NCBI GenBank assembly: GCA_023267195.1
Contig: JAHFNT010000002.1
Location: 23,830-87,829 of the forward strand
Length of the DNA: 64,000 bases
From: Candidatus Nomurabacteria bacterium
Lineage (GTDB): Bacteria > Patescibacteriota > Minisyncoccia > Phycocordibacterales > UBA9973
Reading direction: 5' to 3'
Made by a program: the position numbers and the translations under genes. Positions 16,491 to 64,000 of this stretch are shown here, piece after piece. Below the pieces are notes generated by a model, which saw only the letters and a list, made by a program, of their open reading frames with translations, was not told the DNA's origin and made no database searches. Numbering within the stretch: position 1 is the first letter of the stretch; each line of letters begins with the position of its first letter.

Positions 16491-18251
16491 ATGGAAAGCG
16501 AAACGAGAAAATGTCAAAACTGCAAAAAAGATTTCACCATCGAATCTGAAGATTTTAACTTTTACGAAAAAATAAAAGTGCCCCTGCCGACCTTTTGCCC
16601 ACTTTGCCGCGTACAGAGACGAATGGCCTTTAGAAATGAGCGGAAACTTTTTCGTGTCAAAGATGCTTTCACGGGTTTAGATATTTTTTCAACTTATCCA
16701 AAAGAGAGTGGAAGGAAAATTATTACACGAGAAGCTTGGTTTGGAGATAGCTGGGACGCCATGGAATATGAAACTGAATATGATTTTTCTAAACCATTCA
16801 TAAAGCAATTGATTGAAATTGAAATGAAAGTACCGATGTATAATTTCAATGTTTTAAGAATGGTCAACAGCCCTTATGCTTTTAATGCAACGGGACTAAA
16901 AAATAGTTACCTTGTTGTTAATTCAAATTACTCGGAAGACTGCATGTACGGGAATGCCATCGATCGTTGCAAGGATTGCGTAGACAATTCGCATGTAAAT
17001 CATTCTGAACGATGCTATGAAAGTTTCTGGTTAGAAAAATGTTATAAATGCTACTTTAGCCAAAGGTCAATGGACTCCAGAAATTTATGGTTTTGTCGAG
17101 GGTGTGTAGGATGTAATGATTGTTTTGGGAGTGTAAATTTACGTAAGGCTTCCTATTGCATTTTTAATAAGCAATATACCAAAGAGGAATATAAAAGAGA
17201 AATAGAAAAAATGAAATTAGACACTGATTCTGGGATTAAGGAAGCTAGAAAAAAAGCTCGCGATTTTTGGTTTACTCAGCCCGTCAAATATCATCAAGGG
17301 CTTAGAAATTTGAATTGCTCGGGTTCTTATGTTACCGATTGTAAAAATGTAAATGATAGCTATCTAGTCAGAGAAAGTGAGAATATGCGCTATTGTCAGT
17401 ATTTGCAAGTGCCTAAAAATAAAGATAATTACGATGTCACCAACTGGGGAGAAAATATTGAGCTTTGCTATGAAACAATGGAGTGTGGAGAAAATTCCTA
17501 CAACAATAAATTTTCTCGTAATTGTTGGCCTGCGTGTAGGAACAATGAATACTGCGTGCATCTTTTTAGTTCATCTGACTGTTTCGGCTGTGTTGGACTC
17601 AAAAAAAGGCAATATTGCATTTTAAATAAACAGTATTCTAAAGAAGAATATTTTACGATGGTAGAAAAAATTAAAAAACACATGAACGAAATGCCTTATG
17701 TGGATTCTCAAGGTATTGTTTATAAGTATGGAGAATTTTTTCCCATAGAAATTTCTCCTTTTGGCTACAATAATTCTATCGCTATGCAACATTTTCCTAT
17801 CAAAAAAGAGGAAGCTGAAAACAAAAAATATGGTTGGATAGAAATTGAAAGAGGGGAATATGTGATAACAAAAAAGGCGTCAGAATTTCCAGATTCTATA
17901 AGCGACGTAAACGATGAAATTTTAAAGGAAGTCATTGAATGTGAAAATTGCAAAAAAGCATATCGTATATTGGAAAATGAATTGATCTTTTATCGCAAAG
18001 AGAAACTCCCAATTCCTAGAATGTGCCATGATTGCAGACATGAACGGAGAATTAGCGATCGACTTACATTGCATTTGTACAAAAGATCTTGCATGTGCTC
18101 TGGAATATCTGACGAAACTAACACTTATAAAAATACTGTAAAACATGTTCATGGCGACGAACCGTGTAGTGAAGAGTTCAAGACAGGATACGCACCCAAT
18201 CAATCAGAAATAGTATATTGTGAAAAATGTTATCAGCAAGAGGTTTATTAG
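16491..18251 (+). CDS. Cysteine-rich multi-zinc-ribbon protein, paralog P2
   Basis: CQNCKKDFTIESEDFNFYEKIKVPLPTFCPLCRVQRR; CNDCFGSVNLRKASYCIFNKQYTKEEY; SDCFGCVGLKKRQYCILNKQYSKEEY. The C-terminal ribbon copy is IECENCKKAYRILENELIFYRKEKLPIPRMCHDCRHERR. The protein ends ...IVYCEKCYQQEVY. Confidence 0.8.
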   Translation: MESETRKCQNCKKDFTIESEDFNFYEKIKVPLPTFCPLCRVQRRMAFRNERKLFRVKDAFTGLDIFSTYPKESGRKIITREAWFGDSWDAMEYETEYDFSKPFIKQLIEIEMKVPMYNFNVLRMVNSPYAFNATGLKNSYLVVNSNYSEDCMYGNAIDRCKDCVDNSHVNHSERCYESFWLEKCYKCYFSQRSMDSRNLWFCRGCVGCNDCFGSVNLRKASYCIFNKQYTKEEYKREIEKMKLDTDSGIKEARKKARDFWFTQPVKYHQGLRNLNCSGSYVTDCKNVNDSYLVRESENMRYCQYLQVPKNKDNYDVTNWGENIELCYETMECGENSYNNKFSRNCWPACRNNEYCVHLFSSSDCFGCVGLKKRQYCILNKQYSKEEYFTMVEKIKKHMNEMPYVDSQGIVYKYGEFFPIEISPFGYNNSIAMQHFPIKKEEAENKKYGWIEIERGEYVITKKASEFPDSISDVNDEILKEVIECENCKKAYRILENELIFYRKEKLPIPRMCHDCRHERRISDRLTLHLYKRSCMCSGISDETNTYKNTVKHVHGDEPCSEEFKTGYAPNQSEIVYCEKCYQQEVY

Positions 18252-35664: not shown

Positions 35665-37413
35665 TTAATAAACTTCAGCCTGATAACATTTTTCACAGTA
35701 AATAATCTCTGGCCGCTCGGGCGCGTAGCTTGTCTCAAATTCCACCTCACACTTCCCTTCCCCATGGAAATGTTCTATGGTCGCTTGTGGTGAGCCTGCC
35801 GAACCACACATGCATGTCCTGTGCCAGAGCTTGAAAGGATTGCGGCGCTTGAGCCTAGCAGCGTGACGACAATAAAAACATCGCCTTGGAATTGGTATTT
35901 TCATTTTTCGGTAAAATATCAGTTCGTTTGGAATAATCTTGTAGTTGCGTTTGCATTCAATACACACAAGAACTTCTTCCAGAATCGAATCGGAAACATC
36001 ATAGATGCTCTCAGGAACCTGCTCGGGTTTTAATGTTTCTTTCCCAGTTGTGCGTTGAATATTATCTTGCCATTCATAGTTTTTGTTCAACGCTTCTCCT
36101 TTTGTAAGTGGAACTAATTCAGGAGCGTTTGTCTCATTGTAACCAAAATACGAAAGTTCAATCGGATAATATTCTCCATACTTATAAACATTCCCCATTT
36201 TGTCTACGTAAGGCGTTTTATTCATTTGCTCAATAATTTTCGGCACAAGTTCCTCATATTCCTCTTTCATATATTGTTTATTGAAAATGCAATACTTCGC
36301 GTTTCGAAGTCCCACACAGCCGAAGCAATATTTACAATTATGACAATGCTGCGTGTATCTTATATCCTGGCTTTTCACAGAAAAAAGTCCAAATAAATTA
36401 AGCTGTGAATGATCCATCACTGTCCCCTCATAACATTCTTGCGACTCCCCCGTAAGAGTAATGTCAGAACAGTCTTTGTCATCAGTAAATAAGTCGGAGT
36501 ACCTTACATTTTCAGATTTTTTGCCTGTAAAACATTTTTTCAGATTTTTTGACATGGAAATAATGTCCCCAGTACAATTTAGGCTTTGAAAATTCTGAAC
36601 ATCCCGCCTAGGATATCCTAAGAGAAATTCATCAAATTCCTTTTTTGCTTTTTCTACACCAGAAAATGTATCGAGTTCATAGCTTTTTAAAATTTTCTCA
36701 TATTCTTCTTTCGCATACTGTGTGTTTTTAAAATGATATTTTTTACCACGGAGCCCTGCACACATAAAACAATCAGAACAATCTCGACAATCATAAAGGA
36801 ACGACGAATCAATGCAAGCAAGACAAATTTCAGAATGTTTTACTTGGTATGAGCGGCTAACCATTATGCATTCATAGAGCCATTCACTTGGAGATCTTAT
36901 TACCATGCAGTCTAAAAAATTTTTGCCTGCTAATACAAAAAAACTATACATTACATTTTCAACATGCCAACCGGAAAAATTCATATAGCAATTTTTTGAG
37001 AACCACCAATCTTGATTGTATTCACAGTTTAAGCTAGCAATACCATCATCGTTTACGATGGACATATGCGGAACTTTTTGCACCAGTTCACGAAATTGAG
37101 CAAAAAATGGTTTTGAAAAATCATAGTCAATTCCATAATCTTTTGCATCCCACTTATCGCTCCACCAGCATTTGTTACAGTAGACAGTCAAACCTGAATC
37201 AGGAGAATATAATGAGACAACTCCCTTGCCACACATATCGCACTTACGATTATAGAGAGACATGTTGTTCCTCCACGCCCAACGTCTTTGTCTCCTACAA
37301 TCAGGGCAAAAAGTCGGTGGCGGAACTTTGATCTTTTCATAAAAGCCAAAATCGTCCGGTTCGATGGTGAAATTTTGCTTGCAATTTTGGCATATTTTAG
37401 TTTCCATTATCAC
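35665..37413 (-). CDS. Cysteine-rich multi-zinc-ribbon protein, paralog P3
   Basis: CQNCKQNFTIEPDDFGFYEKIKVPPPTFCPDCRRQRR; CFMCAGLRGKKYHFKNTQYAKEEY; CFGCVGLRNAKYCIFNKQYMKEEY; the C-terminal ribbon LVCIECKRNYKIIPNELIFYRKMKIPIPRRCFYCRHAAR; ends ...IIYCEKCYQAEVY. Confidence 0.8.
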   Translation of the reverse strand: MIMETKICQNCKQNFTIEPDDFGFYEKIKVPPPTFCPDCRRQRRWAWRNNMSLYNRKCDMCGKGVVSLYSPDSGLTVYCNKCWWSDKWDAKDYGIDYDFSKPFFAQFRELVQKVPHMSIVNDDGIASLNCEYNQDWWFSKNCYMNFSGWHVENVMYSFFVLAGKNFLDCMVIRSPSEWLYECIMVSRSYQVKHSEICLACIDSSFLYDCRDCSDCFMCAGLRGKKYHFKNTQYAKEEYEKILKSYELDTFSGVEKAKKEFDEFLLGYPRRDVQNFQSLNCTGDIISMSKNLKKCFTGKKSENVRYSDLFTDDKDCSDITLTGESQECYEGTVMDHSQLNLFGLFSVKSQDIRYTQHCHNCKYCFGCVGLRNAKYCIFNKQYMKEEYEELVPKIIEQMNKTPYVDKMGNVYKYGEYYPIELSYFGYNETNAPELVPLTKGEALNKNYEWQDNIQRTTGKETLKPEQVPESIYDVSDSILEEVLVCIECKRNYKIIPNELIFYRKMKIPIPRRCFYCRHAARLKRRNPFKLWHRTCMCGSAGSPQATIEHFHGEGKCEVEFETSYAPERPEIIYCEKCYQAEVY

Positions 37414-53419: not shown

Positions 53420-54755
53420 TACCCTAACTCGAAAAAAAGAGGAGTTCGCGCCAATCAATCCACCCAATGTTGGTTTTTATTCTTGCGGACCGACAGTATA
53501 CAACTATCAGCACATTGGGAATTATCGTGCCTATGTTTTCGCTGACACTTTAAAACGAGTGCTCGAGTACAGCGGATATAAGGTAAAGCATATTATGAAT
53601 TTAACGGACATTGATGATAAAACTATTCGTGACTCGCAAAAAGAAGGTAAATCACTCAAAGAATTTACAGAATTTTACTCAGAAAAATTTTTTGAAGATG
53701 TGAAGGTACTTAATATTATCCCCCCGCTTAAATTTACCAAGGCAACTGACTACATCGACGAAATGGTGGAAATTGTAGAGAAACTTTTAAAAAACGGACT
53801 CGCGTATAAAAGTGGAGACGGAAGCATATATTTTGATATTAAAAAATTTGAAAATTACGGCAAACTCTCTGGTCTCGTCCTTGAAGAACAGAAAGAAAAC
53901 GCATCCGGCAGAATAAAAACAGATGAATATGAAAAAGAAAATGCACAAGACTTTGCCCTTTGGAAATCATGGGATGAAAAAGATGGTGATGTGTTTTGGG
54001 AAACTTCGCTCGGTAAGGGTCGCCCGGGTTGGCATATTGAATGTTCTGCTATGTCGATGAAAAATTTAGGTGAACAAATAGATTTACACACAGGGGCTGT
54101 TGATAATATTTTTCCCCATCACGAAAACGAAATTGCCCAATCTGAAGGTGCCACGGGAAAACAATTTGTAAAATACTGGATGCATCTCGAGTGGATTCTG
54201 GTGGATGGCAAAAAGATGGCTAAGTCAGCCGGAAATTTCTATACCTTGAGAGATATTATAAGTAGAGGAGTTAACCCATTAGCCTTTCGATTTTGGCTTT
54301 TAATGGCTCATTATCGAACTCGTGTAAACTTCAACTGGGACGCCCTAGAAGGCGCAGAAACAGCGCTAAAACGCCTTTATGGGCTTTATTTAGACCTTGG
54401 AGAAACAGTAGGGAGCGTGCATCAAGAATACCAAAATAAGTTCAAAGAATTCATAGAAGACGACTTGGACACCCCGCGAGCTCTGACAATTCTCTGGGAT
54501 GTTTTCAAAGATGAAAATATGTCCAACGCTGACAAAAAAGCGACAGTTTTAGATTTTGATAAAGTACTTGGTTTAGGTTTTGCAAATTTGAAAGAAGAAA
54601 TAATTCCTAAAGAAGTTTTAGATTTAGCAAAAGCACGCGAACAAGCCCGAGTTGAAAAAGATTTCCAAAAATCAGACGATTTAAGAAAAGAAATAAATGC
54701 TCTCGGCTATGAAGTAAAAGATACTACAGAGGGCCAAAAAATAAGTAGAATTTAA
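53391..54755 (+). CDS. cysS: Cysteinyl-tRNA synthetase
   Basis: FYSCGPTVYNYQHIGNYRAYVFADTL (HIGH motif as HIGN), KMAKS (KMSKS), a zinc-ligand Cys at CGPT, and the DALR-like C-terminus. Confidence 0.9.
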   Translation: MSLNKIQFYNTLTRKKEEFAPINPPNVGFYSCGPTVYNYQHIGNYRAYVFADTLKRVLEYSGYKVKHIMNLTDIDDKTIRDSQKEGKSLKEFTEFYSEKFFEDVKVLNIIPPLKFTKATDYIDEMVEIVEKLLKNGLAYKSGDGSIYFDIKKFENYGKLSGLVLEEQKENASGRIKTDEYEKENAQDFALWKSWDEKDGDVFWETSLGKGRPGWHIECSAMSMKNLGEQIDLHTGAVDNIFPHHENEIAQSEGATGKQFVKYWMHLEWILVDGKKMAKSAGNFYTLRDIISRGVNPLAFRFWLLMAHYRTRVNFNWDALEGAETALKRLYGLYLDLGETVGSVHQEYQNKFKEFIEDDLDTPRALTILWDVFKDENMSNADKKATVLDFDKVLGLGFANLKEEIIPKEVLDLAKAREQARVEKDFQKSDDLRKEINALGYEVKDTTEGQKISRI

Positions 54756-55765
54756 GCTGGTTCTTGCTGAGTAATGCAATGGAGCGCCCCGCCACCATAA
54801 ATAAGATCCGTGCAATCTATCCCAACGATATTTCTATCCGGAAAACAAGATTTTATAATTGACAAAGCCTTTTCGTCGTTTTTATCTCCAAAAAGAGAAA
54901 CCAAAACTGTTTTGTTGCCAACATAAAAATTGGCGTATGAAACTGGGGCTTTTTTACTGTTGTGTTTTGCCCCATCATCATAATACATGTGCGGCATCGG
55001 GAGCTTTATAATTTCAAATTTCTTGCCATCTTGGTCAAAAGAATTCTCTAAAATTTTATAATTTTCAAGCAATCTTTCATAATTCTCATCTGTTTTATCC
55101 TCCTCAAAAGCGCAAAGAATTTTCGAAGGGCTGACAAAACGCGCCACTTCGTCAATGTGCCCATCAGTGTGATCATTCACTAAACCTTTATTCAGCCAAA
55201 CAATATTAGTTGCGCCTAAATTTTCCTTGAAAACCATCTCTGTGTCTTTTTTGTTCTTCCCGATATTGCGATTTAAAATCAAACATTCTTCGGTGGTTAA
55301 AATAGTTCCCAAGCCATTTGCCTCTATCGCTCCGCCTTCCATGGCCATATCGACACTTATCATTTGGAAACCAATTTGATCCTTCAAATTCAAAAAAATA
55401 TTATTATCGGGAGATAATTCTGGAAATTTTCCCCCGTAGCAATCATAATGCCACTTAATCCAAGCTATTTTCTTTTCAATTTTTATAAAAGTCGGCCCAT
55501 AGTCTCGCACCCAGACATCCATATAGGCGTTGTGGTAGAAAATAATTTTAGTTAAATCTGTGCCATTTTTCACAAGCAGAGCGCTTACTTCGTCTTGCAT
55601 TTTCTGATCAAGTACGAGCAGTTTCACCAGCTCATCAGTATGCAAAGCCAGAATAATTTTTAAGTAAATTTCTTTAATCTTATCAATGCGAGCACCGAAA
55701 TAATCATCATCATTCGGCCAGACCAGCCACGTCGCAGTATGCTTTTCCCATTCGGCCGGCATCAT
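54752..55765 (-). CDS. aguA: Agmatine deiminase (peptidyl-arginine deiminase-like family)
   Basis: PAEWEKHTATWLVWP...WVRDYGPTFI...GGGALHCITQQ, including the catalytic Cys at the C-terminus. Confidence 0.8.
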   Translation of the reverse strand: MMPAEWEKHTATWLVWPNDDDYFGARIDKIKEIYLKIILALHTDELVKLLVLDQKMQDEVSALLVKNGTDLTKIIFYHNAYMDVWVRDYGPTFIKIEKKIAWIKWHYDCYGGKFPELSPDNNIFLNLKDQIGFQMISVDMAMEGGAIEANGLGTILTTEECLILNRNIGKNKKDTEMVFKENLGATNIVWLNKGLVNDHTDGHIDEVARFVSPSKILCAFEEDKTDENYERLLENYKILENSFDQDGKKFEIIKLPMPHMYYDDGAKHNSKKAPVSYANFYVGNKTVLVSLFGDKNDEKALSIIKSCFPDRNIVGIDCTDLIYGGGALHCITQQEPA

Positions 55766-56637
55766 AAATATTTTTTGGTAAGTGAATTATAAGTATCGGT
55801 GCGGCGATTACGCAGGAAACCCCATTCTTCGGCAATTTGTTCATTGCTCCCTAAATTAATTTTGGAAATTAAAATTTCATCTTTGAACTTCCCCGCTCGC
55901 TTGATTATCTTGCCAAACGCATCACAGACAAAAGACTGCCCCCAGAATTTCAATTTATCTTCTTGGCCAACGCGATTGACTGCCGCAACATGTAAGCTGT
56001 TCGCTATGGCATGAGCGCGCATGCTAGTCTCCCAAGCCTCATGCCAATCCCCCTCCTTCTGTTTTTCGCCAACTATCGTTCCAATTGCCGTTGGATAGAA
56101 AATTAATTCTGCCCCAGAGAGCTTGACCGCGCGCGCCGCTTCGGGAAACCATTGATCATAACAAATGAGAACCGCAAAAGTAGCATATTCTGTTTTATAT
56201 ATTTTGTATCCATCTTTGCTGTCTTCAAAATAATTTTTTTCGTAAAAAAGAGGATCCTGCGGCACATGGATTTTCCTATAGGTTGGCATCAGTCTTCCGT
56301 CAATGTTTATTACTGCAGCTGAATTATGAAAACGGCCATTACTGTCTTTTTCAAAAACCGGCACGATAATTACAACCTTATGTTTTTTGGCAATCGCCGA
56401 AAAGACTTCGGTTGATTCCCCGGGAATTGTTTCAGAAAAATTATCTTTTTTGGCATTTTTATATTGCGGAAAGTAGGGAGTCCTATAAAGCTCCTGCAGG
56501 CAAATAATCTGCGCACCCTTTTTGGCCGCCTGTTCTACTAATTTCGCAGTTTTAGCTAAATTAACATTCAAGTCGGGCGATACGCTAGTCTGAATTCCTG
56601 CAACTATAACAAATTTATTTTTCATTTTATTGTTCAT
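55762..56637 (-). CDS. aguB: N-carbamoylputrescine amidase (carbon-nitrogen hydrolase family)
   Basis: A nitrilase-superfamily fold with an E-K-C triad context (QIICLQELY; VLICYDQWFPE). It lies directly downstream of aguA. Confidence 0.75.
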   Translation of the reverse strand: MNNKMKNKFVIVAGIQTSVSPDLNVNLAKTAKLVEQAAKKGAQIICLQELYRTPYFPQYKNAKKDNFSETIPGESTEVFSAIAKKHKVVIIVPVFEKDSNGRFHNSAAVINIDGRLMPTYRKIHVPQDPLFYEKNYFEDSKDGYKIYKTEYATFAVLICYDQWFPEAARAVKLSGAELIFYPTAIGTIVGEKQKEGDWHEAWETSMRAHAIANSLHVAAVNRVGQEDKLKFWGQSFVCDAFGKIIKRAGKFKDEILISKINLGSNEQIAEEWGFLRNRRTDTYNSLTKKYL

Positions 56638-57226
56638 TTCTGAAATATAACATATTTAAAATTTTCTTGCGATACAAAAAACAAACCATAATAATATTAG
56701 CAATTATCAGGTATAAACCAAATGAGTATATGGTAAAAGACCAATTTTTTATAATGAGCAAACCAAGAGTATTATTAAAAATTCCCGACAAATAAACAGT
56801 CGCCGTTTCAGTCTCCGGAAATTTCCATCCTTTAATATAAGTCGGTATAAAAGCGAAAAGATCGCTCAAAATTGCAAAAATAATTGATACTGCCAAATTA
56901 TGCGTTAATGCATACAATATTAATGCGAGCACAGAAAATATTCCGCAAATTATATCAAAAGTATTTAATTTCCAATATGCATTTTTTCTGAAAATTGAAA
57001 AGACAACAACAAGCAAGGGTCCAAGGCCGGCCATAAATACGGGTATTACAGAAAGGCCAGCCCCCGCTTTGAGTTGAAAAAATACGCCCAGAAAAGGGCC
57101 CAGTAACCAAAGAAACCAGGAAACCAAGTTAGGTTTAGTCGTTCCTAGAAAAATATTTTTAAAATAAAAAAAATATCCTATTAAGCTGACAAGAACTGCA
57201 ATATAAATTATTTTTTCCGGAAGCAT
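56627..57226 (-). CDS. Polytopic membrane protein, hypothetical
   Basis: 199 aa with five or six hydrophobic helices. It sits between the P4 paralog and aguB in the same-strand string. Confidence 0.45.
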   Translation of the reverse strand: MLPEKIIYIAVLVSLIGYFFYFKNIFLGTTKPNLVSWFLWLLGPFLGVFFQLKAGAGLSVIPVFMAGLGPLLVVVFSIFRKNAYWKLNTFDIICGIFSVLALILYALTHNLAVSIIFAILSDLFAFIPTYIKGWKFPETETATVYLSGIFNNTLGLLIIKNWSFTIYSFGLYLIIANIIMVCFLYRKKILNMLYFRNEQ

Positions 57227-57227
57227 A

Positions 57228-58937
57228 TTAATTAAATTCAGCTTGATAACATTTTACGCAATACACAATTTCGGGTCGGCCTGGTTTGTATGGAGTATAA
57301 ATTTCCGTTTCGCATTTTGCACAATTGCGATGATATAGCCCTGGTTTTGTCATTCTAATAAATCTCTTATCTTGTCGGCATTTTGGACATTCGTGTGGCG
57401 CTGGCAACCCCATTTTATGGAGTAAATCCAATTCGCCTTGGACTATTTTATACGCTCGTTTACAATTTGAGCACTCTATCACTTCTTCTAAAATTGAGTC
57501 TTGAGTTTCTTTAATTTTTTCTGGCAAATCTGCAGCTTTGATCGTAGGCTCCGCGGTTGGATTATCTTCATCACTCCATGTGTAGCCAAGGGACAGTGTC
57601 TGCTCTTTTGTTTTTGGAAAAAAGCGCATTGCATTTGATTTGTTATATGGAAACTGACTCATTTCTGACGGGAAAAATTCTCCATAGAAAAATTTACGGC
57701 CAAGCTTGTCCAGATATGGATTACTTTTCATGTCTGCAATTATTTCTTCTTTTAACTTTTCATATTCTTTTTTAGAATATTCTTTGTTTAAAATACAATA
57801 TTTTTTCCTCTTTAAACTAACGCAGCCGAAATTATCTTTCCCAGAAATTACATAATTACAATATGTGAGATTCAAAACATCTGGAAATGAATTCGCTGAA
57901 AAGAGCACTGTATCCGCGCCTTCTCCCACGTTCTGACACTCATAAATTTGTGATGCGCTTTGCCCCCAGCCAGAATAATCGTAACAATCCTTGGCTGTCG
58001 CTACGGTTATGAACTGACACCACTTACAATTCTCTGCATAATTTACGATATATCCTTCTTTGGAATTTTTTGAGCGGAAAGTATATTCCCCAGTCACATT
58101 TAAATTAAATGTATGCCCATGATATTCTCTGTATGGCTTCATAAGCCAAAACTCATAAGCCTTTTTTTCTACCTCTCGCAAGCCAGACCAGGTGTCTAGT
58201 TTCATATCTTTTATTTTTTCTTCATATTCTTCTTTTGAATATTTAACATTAAAAATAGAATTGGTCGCACCGCGTAGATTTACGCACCCTATACAATTAG
58301 TGCAACCATAACAGTTGCGGGAAAACCACACATCCACACAATTTTCTGATTCATCAGAGAAAAAAGTTCTGTAATTATTTATAAAACCTATTGATTCATA
58401 ACACAATTCCGAATCCCACCCCCTAATGCAGTCAGAGCTAAATCTTAATTTGTTTAGTATCGTAGAATAAAAAACAGATTCACAGTAGTCGGCCCAAAAT
58501 ACAAGATAACAATTTTTACAAGAACCCAGGTGATTACAATATTCAGAATTTTTAAGAGTCGTGTAGGAACTCTGAAGAGCGGGAAACGGGACTTCGGACA
58601 TTAGTTCTTTAATTTGGTCAAAAAATGGACGCGTCCTATCATACTCTTTCGCGAATTCTGTCCCATCCCAAGAATCACCCCACCAGCATGGTTGGCAATA
58701 TATTTTTATCCTATCTCCCGATGAGTACATAGATAAAACCCTTTTCTCGCATTTTTTGCATTTATTCCAAAATAAATTCCAAGTATTAGTAAAAGACCAT
58801 CTGCGAATCAGACGACACTCTGGGCAAAACGTCGGTGCTGGAACTTTTATTTTTTCATAAAAATTAAAATCTTCGGGTTCGATGGTGAAATCCTTCTTGC
58901 AATTCTGACATATTTTGGTTTCACTTTTATGTTCCAT
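57228..58937 (-). CDS. Cysteine-rich multi-zinc-ribbon protein, paralog P4 (most divergent member)
   Basis: CQNCKKDFTIEPEDFNFYEKIKVPAPTFCPECRLIRR; CTNCIGCVNLRGATNSIFNVKYSKEEY; FGCVSLKRKKYCILNKEYSKKEY; the C-terminal ribbon IECSNCKRAYKIVQGELDLLHKMGLPAPHECPKCRQDKR; ends ...IVYCVKCYQAEFN. Confidence 0.8.
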   Translation of the reverse strand: MEHKSETKICQNCKKDFTIEPEDFNFYEKIKVPAPTFCPECRLIRRWSFTNTWNLFWNKCKKCEKRVLSMYSSGDRIKIYCQPCWWGDSWDGTEFAKEYDRTRPFFDQIKELMSEVPFPALQSSYTTLKNSEYCNHLGSCKNCYLVFWADYCESVFYSTILNKLRFSSDCIRGWDSELCYESIGFINNYRTFFSDESENCVDVWFSRNCYGCTNCIGCVNLRGATNSIFNVKYSKEEYEEKIKDMKLDTWSGLREVEKKAYEFWLMKPYREYHGHTFNLNVTGEYTFRSKNSKEGYIVNYAENCKWCQFITVATAKDCYDYSGWGQSASQIYECQNVGEGADTVLFSANSFPDVLNLTYCNYVISGKDNFGCVSLKRKKYCILNKEYSKKEYEKLKEEIIADMKSNPYLDKLGRKFFYGEFFPSEMSQFPYNKSNAMRFFPKTKEQTLSLGYTWSDEDNPTAEPTIKAADLPEKIKETQDSILEEVIECSNCKRAYKIVQGELDLLHKMGLPAPHECPKCRQDKRFIRMTKPGLYHRNCAKCETEIYTPYKPGRPEIVYCVKCYQAEFN

Positions 58938-58970
58938 ATTTTTGCATATACGCTATAGCGTAGATTAATA

Positions 58971-60725
58971 TTAGTACACTTCTTGCTGGTAACATTTTTC
59001 ACAATAAATCACCTCTGGCCGACCGGGCGCATAACTTGTTTCAAATTCTACCTCGCAATTCCCCGCCGCATGATTTGCATGATTTTCCTTATCACACATA
59101 CAACTTCTGTGCCATAGTTTCATTGGATTACGAACTTTCAACCTTGCATCATGACGACAACCAAAGCAAAGACGAGGTATCGGCACCCCTATTCTTTTAT
59201 ACAACCTAAATTCATCTTCTGTGATTCTAAACGCCCCAGAACAGCGATCTCCGCATTCTCTATTGTGTAAACAACTGATGATTTCTTTTGGGATAGATTC
59301 TTGTACGTCTTTAAAACTATCAGGCAGATCTTCGGCTTGTATTGTTATTTGATATTCATTGGTCTTTTTATCTCGCCATCTATATCCCCTTTTGAGAGCT
59401 TCATCTTTTGTTAAAGGAAAATAATCTTGAGCCTGGGTTTCATTGTAGCAAAATGTGGATAATTCCGATGGAAAAAATTCTCCATATTTATAAATGAGAC
59501 CTTTCTTGTCGACATACGACATTGTATTCATGTGCTCAATAATCTTCGGTAAAAGTTTTTCATATTCTTCTTTACTGTATTGTTTATTTAAAATACAATA
59601 ATTTTTATTTCTAAGGCCAATACAGCCAAATAAATTAGAGCAATTAAAACAATAAAAAGAATATTCAACATTTTTGGAACTGTAAACCACATTCGTAAAA
59701 AGACTACGAAAAGAACCCAGACCACCGTCAAAAACTTCATACATCAATTCACCAATACCTACCCCGGGACCCGCATCATACGAATCCTTGATCCGCAGAG
59801 CCCAGTGAAGATATTTAGAATCTTCAACCTGTCCGGCTGTGTCAAAACTATTTTGACAATTTTTTGTCCCTTCAAGATTATCACCCGTAGAATTTACGAC
59901 TTTTATTTGATTGGTAAAACGATGTAAGGCATTCAAATAAAATTCTTTAAATTTTTTATGCAATCTAAGAATAGTTGAATAACTGGTTAGATCAAGTCCA
60001 GCTAAACGCTTGGCATATTCTTCTTTGGAAAGTTGCTCATTCCACATACAATATGACTTGTTTCGGAGATTCGTACACCCAAAACAATTTATACAACCAT
60101 GACAATCGTACAGAAAGTACGAATCCACGCAATTCTTACAATTTAAAGAATACAAAACGTGATAACAATCTGAACAAAATATATCGTCATAACAAAGCTC
60201 AGAACGATGAACAACATATAAATCGGAACTATCCTTAATTTCTGAAACTCTATTGGAATAAAATGTTTTTTCTATTATAAAACACGCTGAAGTCATATAA
60301 CTATCTTTGCTATCTTCCGCGACATTACAATAATCACTATTTACTGCTTTTGAATTCGAAAGAGATTGTTGGGGAAAAATATCTCTCAATTCTTTCCATT
60401 GTTCAAAAAACGGCTTAGAAAAATTATATTCTTTGCCGTAAGCAACAGCGTCCCAACTATCACTCCACCAGTATTTTATGTCATAAACCACAAGTTTTTC
60501 ATCAGGATGATATATTGTAATAATATCTTCATGGTGACTAGAAGCATCGTTTTTTCTTTTATAAAGAGACATTTCGTTTCTCCAACACAAACGTCTAATG
60601 GTGCGGCATTCTGGGCAAAAAGTCGGCGGGGGGACTTTTATTTTTTCGTAAAAGTTAAAATCTTCGGGCTCTATGATAAAGTCTTGTTTACAGTTTTGAC
60701 ATATTTTATTTTCACTTTTATACAT
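58971..60725 (-). CDS. Cysteine-rich multi-zinc-ribbon protein, paralog P5 (tandem with P4)
   Basis: CQNCKQDFIIEPEDFNFYEKIKVPPPTFCPECRTIRR; CINCFGCTNLRNKSYCMWNEQLSKEEY; LFGCIGLRNKNYCILNKQYSKEEY; ends ...VIYCEKCYQQEVY. Confidence 0.8.
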   Translation of the reverse strand: MYKSENKICQNCKQDFIIEPEDFNFYEKIKVPPPTFCPECRTIRRLCWRNEMSLYKRKNDASSHHEDIITIYHPDEKLVVYDIKYWWSDSWDAVAYGKEYNFSKPFFEQWKELRDIFPQQSLSNSKAVNSDYCNVAEDSKDSYMTSACFIIEKTFYSNRVSEIKDSSDLYVVHRSELCYDDIFCSDCYHVLYSLNCKNCVDSYFLYDCHGCINCFGCTNLRNKSYCMWNEQLSKEEYAKRLAGLDLTSYSTILRLHKKFKEFYLNALHRFTNQIKVVNSTGDNLEGTKNCQNSFDTAGQVEDSKYLHWALRIKDSYDAGPGVGIGELMYEVFDGGLGSFRSLFTNVVYSSKNVEYSFYCFNCSNLFGCIGLRNKNYCILNKQYSKEEYEKLLPKIIEHMNTMSYVDKKGLIYKYGEFFPSELSTFCYNETQAQDYFPLTKDEALKRGYRWRDKKTNEYQITIQAEDLPDSFKDVQESIPKEIISCLHNRECGDRCSGAFRITEDEFRLYKRIGVPIPRLCFGCRHDARLKVRNPMKLWHRSCMCDKENHANHAAGNCEVEFETSYAPGRPEVIYCEKCYQQEVY

Positions 60726-60727
60726 AA

Positions 60728-61834
60728 TTAGATTCCCTCTTTTTTGAGTTCTTCTACCACCTCGCGAGCTTTGCGGGAAAGCTTGCCGGGAAGTTTGATA
60801 TGCAACTTGATTAAGAGATCACCACGCTTACCCTTGCCAAAAGGCACGCCCTTTCCTCTGACGCGCAATATTTCGTTGACTGACACACCCTCTGGAATCG
60901 TCACTTCGATTTCCCCGTCTAAAGTTTGTATGGTATGCTTGGTGCCCAAAAGCGCATCAGATAACTTTATGTTCAAATTCATCACCAGGTCATTGCCATC
61001 ACGTCTGAAAACTGGATGCGGTATGACATTTATTTTTATATACAGATCGCCGGTTGTGCCTTTGGAGATCGCTTCACCATAGCCAGTCATTCGCACCATT
61101 TCCCCATCTCTCATACCGGAAGGAATAACAATTGAAATTTCTTCTTCCCGTCTAAGCACGCCCTTGCCTTTGCAATTTTCGCAAAGCTCCTTTGGCACTT
61201 GGCCAGCTCCAAGACATACTTCACAAGTTTTCGTACTGCCAATATTCCCAAAAATAGTCCTTTTGGACTCATGAATTTTCCCTTGCCCATTGCAGTGTTT
61301 GCAAGTTTCCATTTTCGTTCCAGCTTTGGCGCCAGAACCATTACACGTCAGGCATTTAGAAGTTTTAGTAATCAAAATTTTTCTAGTCGTGCCAAAAATA
61401 GCATCCGCAAAAGAAATCTGCATCTCTGTAGAAATATCACGGCCTCGGCGCTGCTGTGTTCTACCCCCTCCCTGACCCCCCATTGCCCCTCCGAAAAAAT
61501 CACTAAAGATATCGTTTAAATTTCCAAAATCAAATTCTACCCCACCATTTCCAAAGCCCTCAGCGCCACTGAAATCGAAACCTCCAAAACCTTGCCCAGC
61601 CCCACCATAGCCCTGACCCATATTTTCAAAACCAGATCCGAACTGATCGTATTTGGAACGCTTTTCATCATCAGAAAGGACTTGGTACGCCTGATTTACT
61701 TCTTTAAATTTCGCCTCATTTCCCCCTTTCTTGTCGGGATGATATTTATGCGCCAGCTTATAAAAAGCCTTTTTAATTTCATCCTTTGACGCGCTCTTAT
61801 TTACTCCCAAAATTTCATAATAATCTTGTTTCAT
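60728..61834 (-). CDS. dnaJ: Molecular chaperone DnaJ
   Basis: J domain (DYYEILGVNKSASKDEIKKAFYKLAHKYHPDKK), G/F-rich linker, four CxxCxGxG zinc-finger repeats, and the C-terminal substrate-binding domains. Confidence 0.9.
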   Translation of the reverse strand: MKQDYYEILGVNKSASKDEIKKAFYKLAHKYHPDKKGGNEAKFKEVNQAYQVLSDDEKRSKYDQFGSGFENMGQGYGGAGQGFGGFDFSGAEGFGNGGVEFDFGNLNDIFSDFFGGAMGGQGGGRTQQRRGRDISTEMQISFADAIFGTTRKILITKTSKCLTCNGSGAKAGTKMETCKHCNGQGKIHESKRTIFGNIGSTKTCEVCLGAGQVPKELCENCKGKGVLRREEEISIVIPSGMRDGEMVRMTGYGEAISKGTTGDLYIKINVIPHPVFRRDGNDLVMNLNIKLSDALLGTKHTIQTLDGEIEVTIPEGVSVNEILRVRGKGVPFGKGKRGDLLIKLHIKLPGKLSRKAREVVEELKKEGI

Positions 61835-61841
61835 GGTTCTT

Positions 61842-63413
61842 TTATATCATAGGCTCAGCTTCTTGTGAAGCTTTTTTATTGGAAATTTTTTTCTCTCCGA
61901 CCTCTATGTCGGAGTCCGACTCTGGTCGGACTTGTTTTTCTTCAACACTTTCCTCAATATTTTCTCCCTCTTCAATTTTACTTCCATTTTTTTCTTTTTC
62001 TTTTCTTTTCGCCCGTCCTTCTATGATTGCTTTTTCTTCAGCGCTGCGAATGATGGTAGCTTCTTCTTCGGCAATCAATTTGGCTGCATCATCTCTAGAG
62101 ATTGAATATTTTCTACGGGATGCGTCTAATATTTGTTGTCTGAAGGACGGGTGGGTAGGCGGAAGAACTTTCAGGGTTTCTGCGGAAAATGGATCATAGG
62201 ATTCTCCGTCAATTGTCATTTTGATATAAAATTCAGTCACTGCCAGGTTGATCATATCCTTGATATCAAACACCGGAGAGAATTCTGGTTTCATTTTTAC
62301 TGCGTCTTCACCTCCAATACGAAAAGTAATGATACTTCCGCAGTTACCGAGCACCGCCTGGTGAACCTTTGTTAAAATTTGCCCGACATATTGATGCGCC
62401 ATGGTCAAATTGAGTCCGTATTTGCGCGCCTCTGATAATATATTTTCAAAAGTCTGAGTTACGACGTTCTGGAACTCGTCCACGTAGAGATAGAAATCTG
62501 TACGATCTTGTTCGGGAATAGCGGCCCGCTCCATTCCAGCTTGTTTTATTTTTGTTAAAAATATAGAACCAAGGAAAGAAGAATTTTCTTCGCCTAGTCT
62601 GCCTTTTGAAAGATTAATGAAAATTATTTTTCCCTCATTCATCAATTTGCTAATATCTATTTTATTTTGCTTCTGGCCGAAAATATTGCGCAGGAGCGGA
62701 TCCGAAAGAAATTGGCCAAGCTTGTTCACGAGAGGAATGATGGCATCAGTGTCAAATTTTTCTGACCAATCGGCGAATTCAATAGCGAAGAATCTTTTCA
62801 CCATGTCGTCGGTAATATATTCCACCACTTTCTGCCGGTAATTTCTGTCCGTCAACATCGAGATCATCCCGCGCATCGTCGCATGCGGATAATCAAGCAA
62901 AGCTAAACAGGTAAAACGAAAAACGTGTTCTAGGCGAGGAGTCCAATTAGCGCCGAATTGTTTTTGAAAAACTTCAATCAAACCCTGAGTCAACTGAAAC
63001 TTAAACATCGGATCCACATTGGCCAAAGGATTAAAAGACGCCGGAAAATCAATATCGGCTGGATCTATAATGCACACATCTTCAATACGATCTTCGGGAA
63101 TATAATCAAGCATTGAATCGATGACATCCCCGTGCGGATCAATCAAGCAAAGTCCATGCCCATAAGAAACATCCTGACGGATAAAAAGCTCCAGAAGTTT
63201 GGTTTTACCAACTCCAGACTTACCAATAATATAGAGATGTCTTCGGCGGTCTATGCGCTTGATACCAAAAACGAATTTCTTTTCTTCCAGTGAGGCTACA
63301 TAATTCGTGCGCCCAATAAAAGAAACCTCTCGCGGATCAACTTTACCGAAGACGGGCAATTCTGGCGGAGGCGGAGCATATTTTATTATCTGTACTCTAT
63401 TGGGCTTCGGCAT
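61842..63413 (-). CDS. HerA/FtsK-superfamily P-loop ATPase (DUF87/TraD-VirD4-like) with Lys/Glu-rich C-terminal tail
   Basis: Walker A (IIGKSGVGKTKLLE), Walker B-like (FYLYVDEFQNV), and a charged low-complexity tail (EEKAIIEGRAKRKEKEKNGSKIEEGENIEESVEEK). Confidence 0.6.
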   Translation of the reverse strand: MPKPNRVQIIKYAPPPPELPVFGKVDPREVSFIGRTNYVASLEEKKFVFGIKRIDRRRHLYIIGKSGVGKTKLLELFIRQDVSYGHGLCLIDPHGDVIDSMLDYIPEDRIEDVCIIDPADIDFPASFNPLANVDPMFKFQLTQGLIEVFQKQFGANWTPRLEHVFRFTCLALLDYPHATMRGMISMLTDRNYRQKVVEYITDDMVKRFFAIEFADWSEKFDTDAIIPLVNKLGQFLSDPLLRNIFGQKQNKIDISKLMNEGKIIFINLSKGRLGEENSSFLGSIFLTKIKQAGMERAAIPEQDRTDFYLYVDEFQNVVTQTFENILSEARKYGLNLTMAHQYVGQILTKVHQAVLGNCGSIITFRIGGEDAVKMKPEFSPVFDIKDMINLAVTEFYIKMTIDGESYDPFSAETLKVLPPTHPSFRQQILDASRRKYSISRDDAAKLIAEEEATIIRSAEEKAIIEGRAKRKEKEKNGSKIEEGENIEESVEEKQVRPESDSDIEVGEKKISNKKASQEAEPMI

Positions 63414-63457
63414 GTAAATTATTGATTACTTAATGTTAAAAGTATATCATATAAAAT

Positions 63458-64000
63458 ATGAAATTACATAGATTTATTGGAGATTTCGACCTCGCCAAAA
63501 ATGAAATAGAAATCACCAACCCTGAAAATATCAAGCAAATAAAGGGTGTTTTGAGAATGGAAAAAGGCGAGAAAATCATTCTGTCGGACGGCAAAGGAAA
63601 TGAAGCAGAGGCTGTGCTGGCTTTTGTTTCGGCAGAGAAAATCATCTGCTTTCTGAAAAAAATAAATAACCAAAAAGAATTGACTAGAAAAGTAAATTTA
63701 TATTTAGCCATTTTGAAAAAAGAGAATTTTGAACTGGCTGTACAAAAAGCAACCGAAATTGGGGTCTCTAATATTACACCGATAATTACCGAGAGAACAA
63801 TTAAGACCGGGTTGAATATCCCCCGTCTACAAAAAATTATATTGGAAGCAAGCGAACAGTCTGGCAGAAACATTTTACCTACTCTGTCCCTTGTTTTAGA
63901 TTTTCCGGTGGCCCTGGCGTATGGCAGCGCGGCGCCGGAGAAAATAATATTTCATCTAGGGCATAAAATGTATGAGGCAAATGAAAAATCAAAAAGCATA
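63458..64000 (+). CDS. rsmE: 16S rRNA (uracil1498-N3)-methyltransferase RsmE (3' partial, runs off window)
   Basis: My own translation: MKLHRFIGDFDLAKNEIEITNPENIKQIKGVLRMEKGEKIILSDGKGNEAEAVLAFVS... This is the RsmE PUA-like N-terminus and SPOUT fold. The ORF is not in the track because it has no stop within the window. Confidence 0.7.
   Translation, partial: MKLHRFIGDFDLAKNEIEITNPENIKQIKGVLRMEKGEKIILSDGKGNEAEAVLAFVSAEKIICFLKKINNQKELTRKVNLYLAILKKENFELAVQKATEIGVSNITPIITERTIKTGLNIPRLQKIILEASEQSGRNILPTLSLVLDFPVALAYGSAAPEKIIFHLGHKMYEANEKSKSI

What the first reader, a model, noticed from the sequence alone, without database searches (positions are those of the whole stretch)
56627..63413. Same-strand string: HerA/FtsK-like ATPase - dnaJ - P5 - P4 - membrane protein - aguB - aguA, with 1-10 nt gaps
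On the minus strand the genes follow each other almost without intergenic space: 61842-63413 (ATPase), 60728-61834 (dnaJ), 58971-60725 (P5), 57228-58937 (P4), 56627-57226 (membrane protein), 55762-56637 (aguB, overlapping) and 54752-55765 (aguA, overlapping). The tandem P5-P4 pair lies directly downstream of dnaJ, itself a CxxCxGxG zinc-finger chaperone, and no dnaK or grpE is adjacent. This places the Cys-rich family in a putative operon with a chaperone and a P-loop ATPase and hints at a proteostasis- or assembly-related role.
Basis: inference. Interest (0 to 1): 0.55.

Follow-up and report, generated by a model that had tools for sequence, protein, structure and literature searches.

The report
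Zinc-finger paralogues beside orphan coupling-type ATPase
The seven-gene run is real, but its two cysteine-rich genes belong to a huge, undescribed family of zinc-finger proteins found only in Paceibacteria (ultra-small CPR bacteria); these genes sit in many unrelated housekeeping operons and track an orphan secretion-type ATPase, not the chaperone DnaJ.

Summary
Seven minus-strand ORFs sit at the stated coordinates, with gaps of 7, 2, 33 and 1 nt and overlaps of 11 and 4 nt, and no terminator-like site falls in any gap.

dnaJ is the ordinary housekeeping DnaJ. "No dnaK adjacent" is a window-edge effect: in relatives the order is grpE > P > dnaK > ATPase2 > P array > ATPase1 > dnaJ > (P) > membrane protein.

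A P gene follows dnaJ in only 3 of 39 ATPase-centred loci, which is background frequency. Orthologues of P5 and P4 lie elsewhere in other genomes. The other three window paralogues sit inside purine and cell-wall operons.

What recurs is P next to the ATPase. P is at -1 in 24 of 38 loci in one context, and at +1/+2 in 16 of 43 positions in an independent context, against a background of 6-10%. The paralogous ATPase2 always carries the same CxxC-x17-CxxC finger that ends every P protein.

- **P proteins:** soluble, about 575 aa, 27-36 cysteines. They have paired treble-clef fingers at both ends and a duplicated middle domain with no Pfam or PDB match.
- **ATPase:** a soluble VirD4/TrwB-like protein.

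Best reading: P proteins are zinc-finger partners of these orphan ATPases. Their function is unproven.

The parts
61842..63413 (-). ATPase1 (A1): soluble VirD4/TrwB-type P-loop ATPase of the FtsK-HerA superfamily. Walker A is GKSGVGKT; the Walker B region is FYLYVDEF; the tail is rich in K and E.
   Evidence: Pfam PF10412, PF02534 and PF12696 are all above their cut-offs. The best Foldseek PDB matches are TrwB 1e9s (3.8e-7), HerA 4d2i and Cag-beta 8dol, but the model is low-confidence. There is no TM segment. The top 120 homologues are 81-92% identical.
60728..61834 (-). dnaJ: canonical type I Hsp40.
   Evidence: TIGR02349 scores 393.8 bits against a cut-off of 377.2. Pfam finds DnaJ, DnaJ_CXXCXGXG and DnaJ_C.
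58971..60725 (-). P5: multi-zinc-finger paralogue with 33 Cys; its finger 2 is degenerate.
57228..58937 (-). P4: multi-zinc-finger paralogue with 34 Cys; all four terminal fingers are intact.
   Evidence: AF2 model with pLDDT 81.7 and pTM 0.84. Internal duplications are supported by hhalign.
58938..58970 (.). The 33-nt gap between P5 and P4. It holds a perfect 14-nt palindrome, TACGCTATAGCGTA (58949-58962), with no T-run after it on the coding strand.
56627..57226 (-). Small polytopic membrane protein of an unnamed family. In relatives it follows dnaJ, or dnaJ plus P.
   Evidence: No Pfam or NCBIfam hit. Hydropathy. Synteny.
55762..56637 (-). aguB-like N-carbamoylputrescine amidase (CN_hydrolase).
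   Evidence: It is below the TIGR03381 equivalog cut-off.
54752..55765 (-). aguA-like agmatine deiminase (PAD_porph).
   Evidence: It is below the TIGR03380 equivalog cut-off.
63414..63457 (.). 44-nt divergent intergenic region between ATPase1 and rsmE. This is the likely start of the transcription unit.
63458..64000 (+). 5' part of rsmE (16S rRNA methyltransferase), which runs off the window. The minus-strand ORF 63436-63873 is spurious.
   Evidence: L082 gene calls with PF04452; coordinate mapping.
6286..8028 (+). P1 paralogue, wedged between purL and purQ.
16491..18251 (+). P2 paralogue, between guaA and purH.
35665..37413 (-). P3 paralogue, directly upstream of mraY-ftsW-murG. This position is conserved in relatives.

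Best explanation
The run is a compact, probably co-transcribed gene string, but it is a mosaic and not a proteostasis module. It combines five kinds of gene:
1. The housekeeping dnaJ, a remnant of an ancestral grpE-dnaK-dnaJ(-rsmE) neighbourhood.
2. An orphan, soluble VirD4/TrwB-like hexameric-translocase-type ATPase (A1), which is among the most conserved proteins of class Paceibacteria.
3. Two members (P5, P4) of a very large Paceibacteria-specific family of cytoplasmic proteins of about 575 aa.
4. A conserved small membrane protein.
5. A replaceable polyamine pair (aguBA).

Each P protein has a pair of Cys4 treble-clef zinc fingers at each end (zf_Tbcl-like plus a CxxC-x17-CxxC zf_Tbcl_2). 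Between them lie two homologous cysteine-bearing middle domains with no known counterpart.

P genes are ancient, stable paralogues scattered co-directionally through housekeeping operons, so their position after dnaJ here is incidental.

Inferred, not shown: P proteins act together with the A1/A2 ATPases. The conserved terminal fingers would be the common interface to the ATPase or to a nucleic acid, and the divergent middle domains would give each paralogue its own specificity. In other words, P proteins would be adaptor or substrate-recognition partners of a ring translocase.
For: Shown:
- ORFs and gaps; no intergenic terminators.
- Five paralogues in the window at 39-47% identity, placed in pur, gua and dcw contexts.
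- The family is large: more than 7,900 hits, all from Patescibacteria and all 'hypothetical', and 2,206 clusters at 50% identity with E<1e-30.
- No Pfam, NCBIfam or PADLOC family matches apart from the fingers.
- No PDB sequence or fold match despite a usable model with pTM 0.84. BFVD matches cover only the zinc-ribbon parts.
- Internal duplications: N module vs C module at probability 99.4, Mid1 vs Mid2 at 99.7.
- Cysteine content is 4.7-6.2% against 0.76% in other ORFs, and there are no TM segments.
- The CxxC-x17-CxxC domain binds zinc experimentally (PMC12704099).
- Conserved synteny is grpE > P > c4< dnaK > A2 > P(1-5) > (rsmE<) A1 > dnaJ > (P) > memb.

A1-P linkage in an A1-centred sample:
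- P is at -1 in 24 of 38 loci, against 15 of 255 at a distance of 5 or more genes.
- In the independent non-dnaJ context (A1 at 72-78% identity), P is at +1/+2 in 16 of 43 positions, against 13 of 133.
- All 34 A2-type ATPases carry the C-terminal zf_Tbcl_2 finger, which scores 44.3 bits against a cut-off of 27.

Published context: T4CP homologues are abundant in Patescibacteria and are rarely near virB4 (5,713 in 2,918 genomes, 148 near virB4). The authors raise possible exaptation (PMC12102498).
Against: - No experiment or transcript data exist.
- In the P-centred sample, A-P enrichment disappears once the conserved Nomurabacteria block is removed (11 observed vs 10.8 expected; A1 within 2 genes in 8 of 11 loci vs 6.3 expected).
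- The loci are not phylogenetically independent, so the Fisher p-values are nominal.
- Most P genes (about 60% of arrays) have no ATPase neighbour.
- Three of the five window paralogues are tens of kb from any ATPase.
- The shared finger is a small, promiscuous module.
- The ATPase model is poor (pLDDT 53.6).
- ORF calling and labelling in the loci used my own heuristics and BLAST.
Confidence: 0.5

Rival explanations
1. One reading: P proteins are functionally tied to the DnaK/DnaJ/GrpE system, as co-chaperones, obligate clients or assembly factors. The ATPase-dnaJ-P operon would then be a proteostasis or assembly module.
For: - In Nomurabacteria-type genomes all three chaperone genes lie in one P-rich block: grpE > P > dnaK > A2 > P... 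> A1 > dnaJ > (P).
- A1 is followed by dnaJ in 25 of 26 loci and in 43 of 67 loci.
- grpE-P adjacency is 5 observed against 1.5 expected.
- Proteins with about 30 cysteines and several zinc sites could plausibly need assisted folding.
Against: - dnaJ-P adjacency is at background level: 3 of 39 (p = 0.72) and 9 against 9.2 expected.
- dnaK-P adjacency is depleted (3 against 8.6 expected).
- P5 and P4 orthologues are not next to dnaJ in other genomes.
- In other Paceibacteria lineages, P arrays and A1 occur without chaperone genes nearby; only 2 of 24 loci have one within 10 kb, about the chance level.
- P does not match the DnaJ CxxCxGxG model.
- rsmE next to dnaJ is ancestral dnaK-operon synteny known from Bacillus. 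That point rests on my own knowledge.
Confidence: 0.12
2. P proteins have a function of their own, for example as nucleic-acid-binding regulators or as metal or redox proteins, and have no mechanistic tie to the ATPases. Their adjacency would reflect tandem duplication inside one ancient block and the general co-directional packing of streamlined genomes.
For: - P genes make up 19% of genes in P-centred loci and sit next to many unrelated genes.
- There is no enrichment outside the conserved block in the P-centred sample.
- Paralogue positions change between genomes.
- The finger modules are mildly basic, +1 to +7 net charge in most paralogues.
- cutA is often adjacent.
Against: - The A1-centred sample shows local P enrichment on opposite sides of A1 in two different gene contexts.
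- A2 invariably carries the finger that closes every P protein.
Confidence: 0.22
3. P proteins are cargo: substrates or effectors handed by the VirD4-like coupling ATPase to the Patescibacteria type IV secretion system for delivery to the host cell. The conserved terminal modules would be the recognition signal, as in the Xanthomonas XVIPCD effectors.
For: - The ATPase is T4CP-like.
- Arrays of paralogues lie beside it.
- The Patescibacteria T4SS appears to be non-conjugative (PMC12102498).
Against: - A1 has no membrane anchor.
- No virB4 or other T4SS gene was found in the annotated window.
- P orthologues are 62-76% identical across genomes and are embedded in core operons, unlike fast-evolving effectors.
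- Multi-zinc folds are poor secretion substrates (my inference).
- The T4CP homologue was not essential for epibiotic growth in Ca. S. epibionticum, as reported in PMC12102498.
Confidence: 0.08
4. A HerA-type anti-phage defence module, in which the ATPase pairs with variable sensor or effector paralogues.
For: Weak PADLOC hits for the ATPase: mad8 at 2.7e-13 and HerA models at 1e-6 or weaker. Foldseek matches include SIR2-HerA and DUF4297-HerA complexes.
Against: - No PADLOC hit for any P protein and no phage homologues.
- A1 is 72-92% conserved across the class and sits in a fixed core-genome position, unlike defence islands.
- No nuclease, SIR2 or similar partner gene is present.
Confidence: 0.04

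Closest known systems
Type IV coupling proteins (VirD4 / TrwB / TraD / Cag-beta), including the orphan T4CP homologues reported in Patescibacteria (PMC12102498)
   Same: The P-loop nucleotide-binding domain has an inserted all-alpha domain. Pfam PF10412, PF02534 and PF12696 are above their cut-offs, and TrwB is the best PDB fold match. Like most Patescibacteria T4CP homologues, this one is encoded away from virB4.
   Different: There is no N-terminal transmembrane anchor, and no relaxase or T4SS genes were found in the annotated window. It falls far below the NCBIfam TraD and VirD4 equivalog cut-offs (51.9 vs 366 bits). It is extremely conserved in sequence and is flanked by dnaJ and zinc-finger paralogues.
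HerA-type translocases with dedicated partners (HerA-NurA, HerA-SIR2, HerA-DUF4297)
   Same: It belongs to the same ATPase superfamily, and HerA is the second-best fold match. The logic of a ring ATPase encoded beside a non-ATPase partner protein is also shared.
   Different: DUF87 is below its cut-off (22.4 vs 23.2 bits). The HAS-barrel was not shown. The partner here is a multi-zinc-finger protein present in many paralogues, not a nuclease or NADase.
Small CxxC-x17-CxxC zinc-finger proteins (TIGR04272 / PF23477 zf_Tbcl_2) and PF13451 zf_Tbcl
   Same: The last finger of every P protein and the C-terminal finger of A2 match PF23477. The first finger weakly matches PF13451. The domain binds zinc in the Methanosarcina mazei proteins.
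   Different: Those are stand-alone proteins of about 40-60 aa. P proteins are about 575 aa, with four such fingers framing roughly 400 aa of sequence with no known family or fold.
DnaJ zinc-finger-like region (CxxCxGxG x4)
   Same: It is cysteine-rich and zinc-binding, and it is encoded next door.
   Different: No sequence-model match. The spacing and topology differ: paired treble-clef ribbons in P against the V-shaped two-zinc-centre domain in DnaJ.

Membership tests
DnaJ, type I Hsp40 (TIGR02349) | Score above the equivalog cut-off; J domain with HPD; G/F-rich linker; four CxxCxGxG motifs; C-terminal substrate-binding domains | tested here: met
   393.8 bits against a cut-off of 377.2. PF00226, PF00684 and PF01556 are all above their cut-offs. 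HPD (YHPDKK), the G/F stretch and the motifs CLTCNGSG, CKHCNGQG, CEVCLGAG and CENCKGKG are visible in the translation.
Type IV coupling protein (VirD4/TrwB/TraD) | P-loop nucleotide-binding domain with an inserted all-alpha domain | tested here: met
   PF10412 27.5 bits (cut-off 20.5), PF02534 26.0 (20.1), PF12696 25.7 (22). Foldseek top hits are TrwB at 3.8e-7 over about 325 columns (the model is low-confidence).
Type IV coupling protein (VirD4/TrwB/TraD) | N-terminal transmembrane anchor | tested here: not met
   The maximum 19-residue Kyte-Doolittle mean is 1.03, and no segment reaches 1.6.
Type IV coupling protein (VirD4/TrwB/TraD) | Genomic association with virB4, other T4SS genes or a relaxase | tested here: not met
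   None was found among the 47 window ORFs scanned with Pfam. The literature reports only 148 of 5,713 Patescibacteria T4CP homologues near virB4. The fetched loci were not scanned for virB4.
Type IV coupling protein (VirD4/TrwB/TraD) | NCBIfam equivalog or subfamily score | tested here: not met
   TIGR03743 51.9 bits against 366; NF045973 51.2 against 250; TIGR03754 40.2 against 647.
HerA helicase (DUF87, PF01935) | Pfam gathering score; HAS-barrel N-terminal domain; NurA or another partner gene | tested here: not met
   PF01935 scores 22.4 bits against a cut-off of 23.2. No NurA-like neighbour is present. The HAS-barrel cannot be assessed from the poor model.
zf_Tbcl_2 / CxxC-x17-CxxC zinc finger (PF23477, TIGR04272) | CxxC-x17-CxxC motif with the P[FY]xPxxxRPxYCxxC core, and a Pfam score | tested here: inconclusive
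   The motif is present and its four cysteines are at least 80% conserved (C539, C542, C560, C563). P4 scores 19.8-23.8 bits, below the cut-off of 27. 38 of 84 family members match at E<0.01, best 1.4e-7. The A2 finger scores 44.3 bits, clearly above the cut-off.
DnaJ_CXXCXGXG domain, as a possible identity for the P cysteine repeats | Match to PF00684 | tested here: not met
   No hit in any of the 84 members at E<0.01.
Agmatine deiminase pathway (AguA and AguB) | PAD_porph and CN_hydrolase domains in adjacent genes; equivalog scores | tested here: inconclusive
   The Pfam matches are strong (1.5e-104 and 1.4e-56) and the genes overlap by 4 nt. TIGR03380 (249.8 vs 381.8 bits) and TIGR03381 (270.1 vs 410.25 bits) are below their equivalog cut-offs.
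Operon (single transcription unit) | Co-directional genes with short gaps, no internal terminators, and one transcript | not testable with these tools
   Gaps are 33 nt or less, or the genes overlap. No minus-strand terminator-like site lies in any gap. Promoter-like matches inside ORFs are only at the weakest reported level (9 of 12). No RNA data are available.
Known anti-phage defence systems (PADLOC) | Hits to system components, with partner genes present | tested here: not met
   Only weak ATPase hits (mad8 at 2.7e-13, HerA models) and none for the five P proteins or the membrane protein.

The most novel reading that the evidence does not exclude
The P family and the orphan VirD4-like ATPases (A1, A2 and further paralogues) together form a previously undescribed core machine specific to Paceibacteria. 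In this reading, a ring translocase is directed by a repertoire of a dozen or more multi-zinc-finger adaptors, each fixed in a different housekeeping operon, to different nucleic-acid or protein substrates. This would be a major, lineage-defining investment of a streamlined genome: P genes alone fill about 14% of this 64-kb window.
Probability: 0.2. Interest if true: 0.8.

Novelty: new variant of a known kind. Interest (0 to 1): 0.5.

Why it matters
Patescibacteria have tiny genomes, yet this lineage keeps many stable paralogues of a 575-aa zinc-finger protein. That family has more than 2,200 clusters at 50% identity, no name, no Pfam model and no solved fold. The lineage also keeps several copies of a secretion-type ATPase with no secretion system beside it.

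A published survey noted that Patescibacteria coupling-protein homologues are abundant, rarely lie near virB4, and may have been exapted. The P family is a concrete candidate partner, which makes that question testable by co-expression, metal analysis and complex prediction.

The result also shows that reading function from one window's gene string can mislead in genomes where an expanded family is sprinkled through every operon.

Tried and rejected
- **Sequence searches for the P family.** The PDB profile search returned only a LIM-like hit at E = 0.4. NCBIfam, PADLOC and a Pfam scan of all 84 alignment members gave nothing beyond the fingers. A tblastn search against phages gave no match.
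- **Mobile-element idea for P genes.** There are no flanking direct or inverted repeats. The only repeats are internal and reflect the Mid1/Mid2 duplication and P4/P5 paralogy. Orthologous positions such as scpAB-P3-mraY are conserved. Rejected.
- **Palindrome in the P5-P4 gap as a shared operator.** It is unique in the window. Not pursued further.
- **ATPase structure.** The alignment was too shallow (pLDDT 53.6), so the model was used only for coarse fold assignment.
- **Source contig.** Fetching the 190-kb source contig through the exact-protein look-up returned only short contigs.
- **Literature.** Five searches found no description of the P family. The Parcubacteria 'cysteine-rich' hit was irrelevant.
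- **Statistics.** The first enrichment test, on P-centred loci, proved to be driven by one synteny block. I therefore drew a second, ATPase-centred sample.

Full report
**Observation**

From ATPase to aguA, the gaps are 7, 2, 33 and 1 nt, followed by overlaps of 11 and 4 nt. No terminator-like hairpin on the coding strand falls in any gap, and promoter-like matches inside the run are only at the weakest reported level.

- **dnaJ** is a bona fide type I DnaJ. It scores 393.8 bits on TIGR02349 against a cut-off of 377.2, and has the J domain, four CxxCxGxG motifs and the C-terminal domain.
- **aguA and aguB** are strong PAD_porph and CN_hydrolase matches, though both are below the NCBIfam equivalog cut-offs.
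- **The ATPase** passes the Pfam cut-offs of three coupling-protein families (TrwB_AAD_bind, T4SS-DNA_transf, TraG-D_C) but just misses DUF87/HerA.
  - It has no hydrophobic segment.
  - A low-confidence model (pLDDT 53.6) still finds TrwB first, then HerA and Cag-beta, in the PDB.

**What lies beyond the window**

The window ends 587 bases upstream of the ATPase. A short contig from the same organism, identical over the 2,160 shared bases, continues the sequence.
- It first carries rsmE on the opposite strand, starting at window position 63458. The minus-strand ORF 63436-63873 is therefore spurious.
- Beyond rsmE lies a second ATPase paralogue, A2 (45% identical). Its C-terminus carries a CxxC-x17-CxxC finger scoring 44.3 bits on PF23477 against a cut-off of 27.

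**The cysteine-rich family**

P5 and P4 have three more paralogues in the window (39-47% identity). Together the five genes occupy about 8.7 kb of the 64 kb.

The other three are not near any chaperone:
- P1 lies between purL and purQ.
- P2 lies between guaA and purH.
- P3 lies directly upstream of mraY-ftsW-murG.

The family is very large and confined to Patescibacteria, mostly Nomurabacteria/Paceibacteria and related lineages.
- Each of two searches was capped at 8,000 candidates and returned more than 7,400 hits. Every source-given name but one (a stray 'formylmethanofuran dehydrogenase subunit E' label) is 'hypothetical protein'.
- An exhaustive profile search of 1.84 billion representatives found 2,206 clusters at 50% identity with E<1e-30, nearly all full-length.
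- P5 and P4 each have their own orthologues at 62-76% identity. These are therefore old, selectively maintained paralogues.

The proteins have no signal peptide or TM segment, and carry 27-36 cysteines (4.7-6.2%, against 0.76% in the other ORFs).

The architecture, from the alignment and hhalign:
- An N-terminal pair of Cys4 fingers (residues 5-85 of P4) is homologous to a C-terminal pair (484-565), with probability 99.4.
- Two middle domains (about 131-232 and 269-385) are homologous to each other, with probability 99.7.
- A conserved C-x8-C-x2-C-x2-C-x2-C cluster is present only in the first middle domain.
- Finger 2 is intact in the P4 and P3 subfamilies and degenerate in P5, P1 and P2.

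Only the fingers match known models: PF23477 zf_Tbcl_2, and weakly PF13451. The CxxC-x17-CxxC domain has been shown to bind zinc in small Methanosarcina proteins (PMC12704099).

An AlphaFold model of P4 is reasonably confident (pLDDT 81.7, pTM 0.84). It has no match in the PDB and only zinc-ribbon fragments in BFVD. There are no phage homologues, no PADLOC hits and no flanking repeats that would indicate mobility.

**Is the dnaJ adjacency conserved?**

I drew two samples.

*P5-centred loci.* These were 80 loci from GTDB species genomes, with ORFs clustered without annotation. They hold 231 P genes among 1,200 genes, 87 ATPase-family genes, 26 dnaJ and 25 dnaK. The loci show one conserved Nomurabacteria-type block:

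rpsI > grpE > P > (ABC) > PaaX-like< > dnaK > A2 > P(1-5) > (rsmE<) > A1 > dnaJ > P(0-2) > membrane protein > (speB<) > cysS< > AI-2E permease<

dnaJ is the housekeeping copy, in a neighbourhood into which ATPase and P genes are interleaved.

In this sample a P gene directly follows dnaJ in 9 of 26 loci, and shuffling gene units within each locus gives 9.2 expected. None of about 20 P5 orthologues at 66% identity or more follows dnaJ; they lie upstream of A1.

*A1-centred loci.* These were 80 metagenome loci, unbiased with respect to P. dnaJ is followed by P in 3 of 39 cases and by the membrane protein in 19 of 39. The local P background is 15 of 255 (p = 0.72).

P4 orthologues (64-70% identity) in other genomes lie between an rluA-like gene and rplS, or between murC and murD. 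P2 orthologues lie after A2 in some genomes.

**What is conserved**

A1 is followed by dnaJ in 43 of 67 A1-centred loci. This is a clade feature, and it is absent where A1 is 72-78% identical.

P genes are concentrated next to A1 in both contexts:

| Context | Position relative to A1 | P observed | P background (5 or more genes away) | Nominal p |
|---|---|---|---|---|
| dnaJ context | -1 | 24 of 38 | 15 of 255 | 1e-15 |
| Other context | +1 and +2 | 16 of 43 | 13 of 133 | 9e-5 |

The typical order in the other context is sigma-r4/HARE-HTH protein > Ax > small TM protein > A1 > (cutA) > P.

All 34 A2-type ATPases carry the finger that also closes every P protein.

Caveats:
- The loci share ancestry, so the p-values are nominal.
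- In the P-centred sample the enrichment vanishes outside the conserved block.
- Most P arrays have no ATPase neighbour.

**Interpretation**

The string is best read as a mosaic of five components: an ancestral chaperone-operon remnant, an orphan soluble coupling-type ATPase, two members of an expanded zinc-finger family, a conserved membrane protein, and a replaceable polyamine cassette. In many relatives the aguBA slot is taken by speB.

The most likely functional tie of P is to the ATPases. The conserved terminal fingers (51-56% identity among the window paralogues) would form the common interface. The more divergent middle domains (35% identity) would give each paralogue its specificity. 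This step is inferred, not shown.

The ATPase side has a published context. [quoted passage not shown]

The rival explanations are listed with their tests: a chaperone link, an independent function with incidental adjacency, T4SS cargo, and anti-phage defence.

**Novelty and score**

I found no description of the P family in Pfam, NCBIfam, PADLOC, the PDB or five full-text literature searches.

The finding as posed, a DnaJ-linked operon, is largely ordinary synteny. The family underneath it, and its association with orphan coupling-type ATPases, is worth follow-up. Overall interest is 0.5.

The most novel reading, a Paceibacteria-specific translocase with a repertoire of zinc-finger adaptors, has a probability of about 0.2.

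Noticed in passing
window 3379-23835: A near-complete de novo purine and GMP/AMP gene cluster (purL, purQ, purF, purN, purD, purA, guaB, guaA, purH, purE, purM, purC, purB) in a Patescibacteria genome, with a PRPP synthetase at 45100-46119. PMC6744442 states that most CPR bacteria lack de novo nucleotide synthesis. Two P paralogues are wedged inside the cluster.
   Followed up: partly
window 58813-58930 vs 60604-60721: The first 118 nt of P4 and P5 are 81% identical in DNA, although the two proteins are only 39% identical overall. This could be strong constraint on finger 1 or gene conversion between the tandem copies.
   Followed up: no
window 58949-58962: A perfect 14-nt palindrome, TACGCTATAGCGTA, in the 33-nt P5-P4 gap. 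It is unique in the window (0.07 expected by chance) and has no T-run after it, so it does not look like a terminator.
   Followed up: partly
window 63436-63873 (-) and 63458-64000 (+): The 145-aa minus-strand ORF upstream of the ATPase is spurious. The real gene is rsmE on the plus strand, which runs off the window. Only 44 nt separate the two divergent start codons.
   Followed up: yes
L082 35-1678 (same organism, beyond the window end): A second ATPase paralogue (A2, 45% identical) has a C-terminal CxxC-x17-CxxC finger and a long K/E-rich tail. All 34 A2-type genes in related loci carry this finger.
   Followed up: yes
window 54752-56637; related loci L003, L083, L086, L098, L111, L121, L125 vs many others: The slot after the membrane protein holds aguB-aguA in some genomes and an agmatinase-like speB on the opposite strand in many others. 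These are two alternative routes from agmatine to putrescine at the same locus.
   Followed up: partly
loci L025, L043, L045, L071, L136, L141, L145, L149, L151, L153, L154, L156, L162: In other Paceibacteria lineages A1 sits in a different conserved cluster: sigma70-r4/HARE-HTH protein > a shorter ATPase-like protein (Ax, no Pfam hit) > a 170-aa single-TM coiled-coil protein > A1 > often cutA > P. The TM protein could be a detached membrane anchor for the soluble ATPases.
   Followed up: partly
P4 residues 60, 63, 81, 84 (window about 58684-58760) and the same columns in the paralogues: The second N-terminal finger is a complete Cys4 site in the P4 and P3 subfamilies but has lost most or all of its four cysteines in P5, P1 and P2 (P1 keeps one). 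P1 has also lost three of the four cysteines of finger 3. This points to subfunctionalisation among the paralogues.
   Followed up: partly
P4 residues 200-218 (window about 58282-58338): A conserved C-x8-C-x2-C-x2-C-x2-C cluster, with a further conserved cysteine at C179, occurs only in the first of the two homologous middle domains. This suggests a functional metal site (zinc or possibly Fe-S) and not a purely structural feature.
   Followed up: no
window 2353-3360 (-): A CofD-family (2-phospho-L-lactate transferase-like) gene in a Patescibacteria genome (8.2e-76). It is probably the YvcK/gluconeogenesis-factor type and not F420 biosynthesis. Not examined.
   Followed up: no
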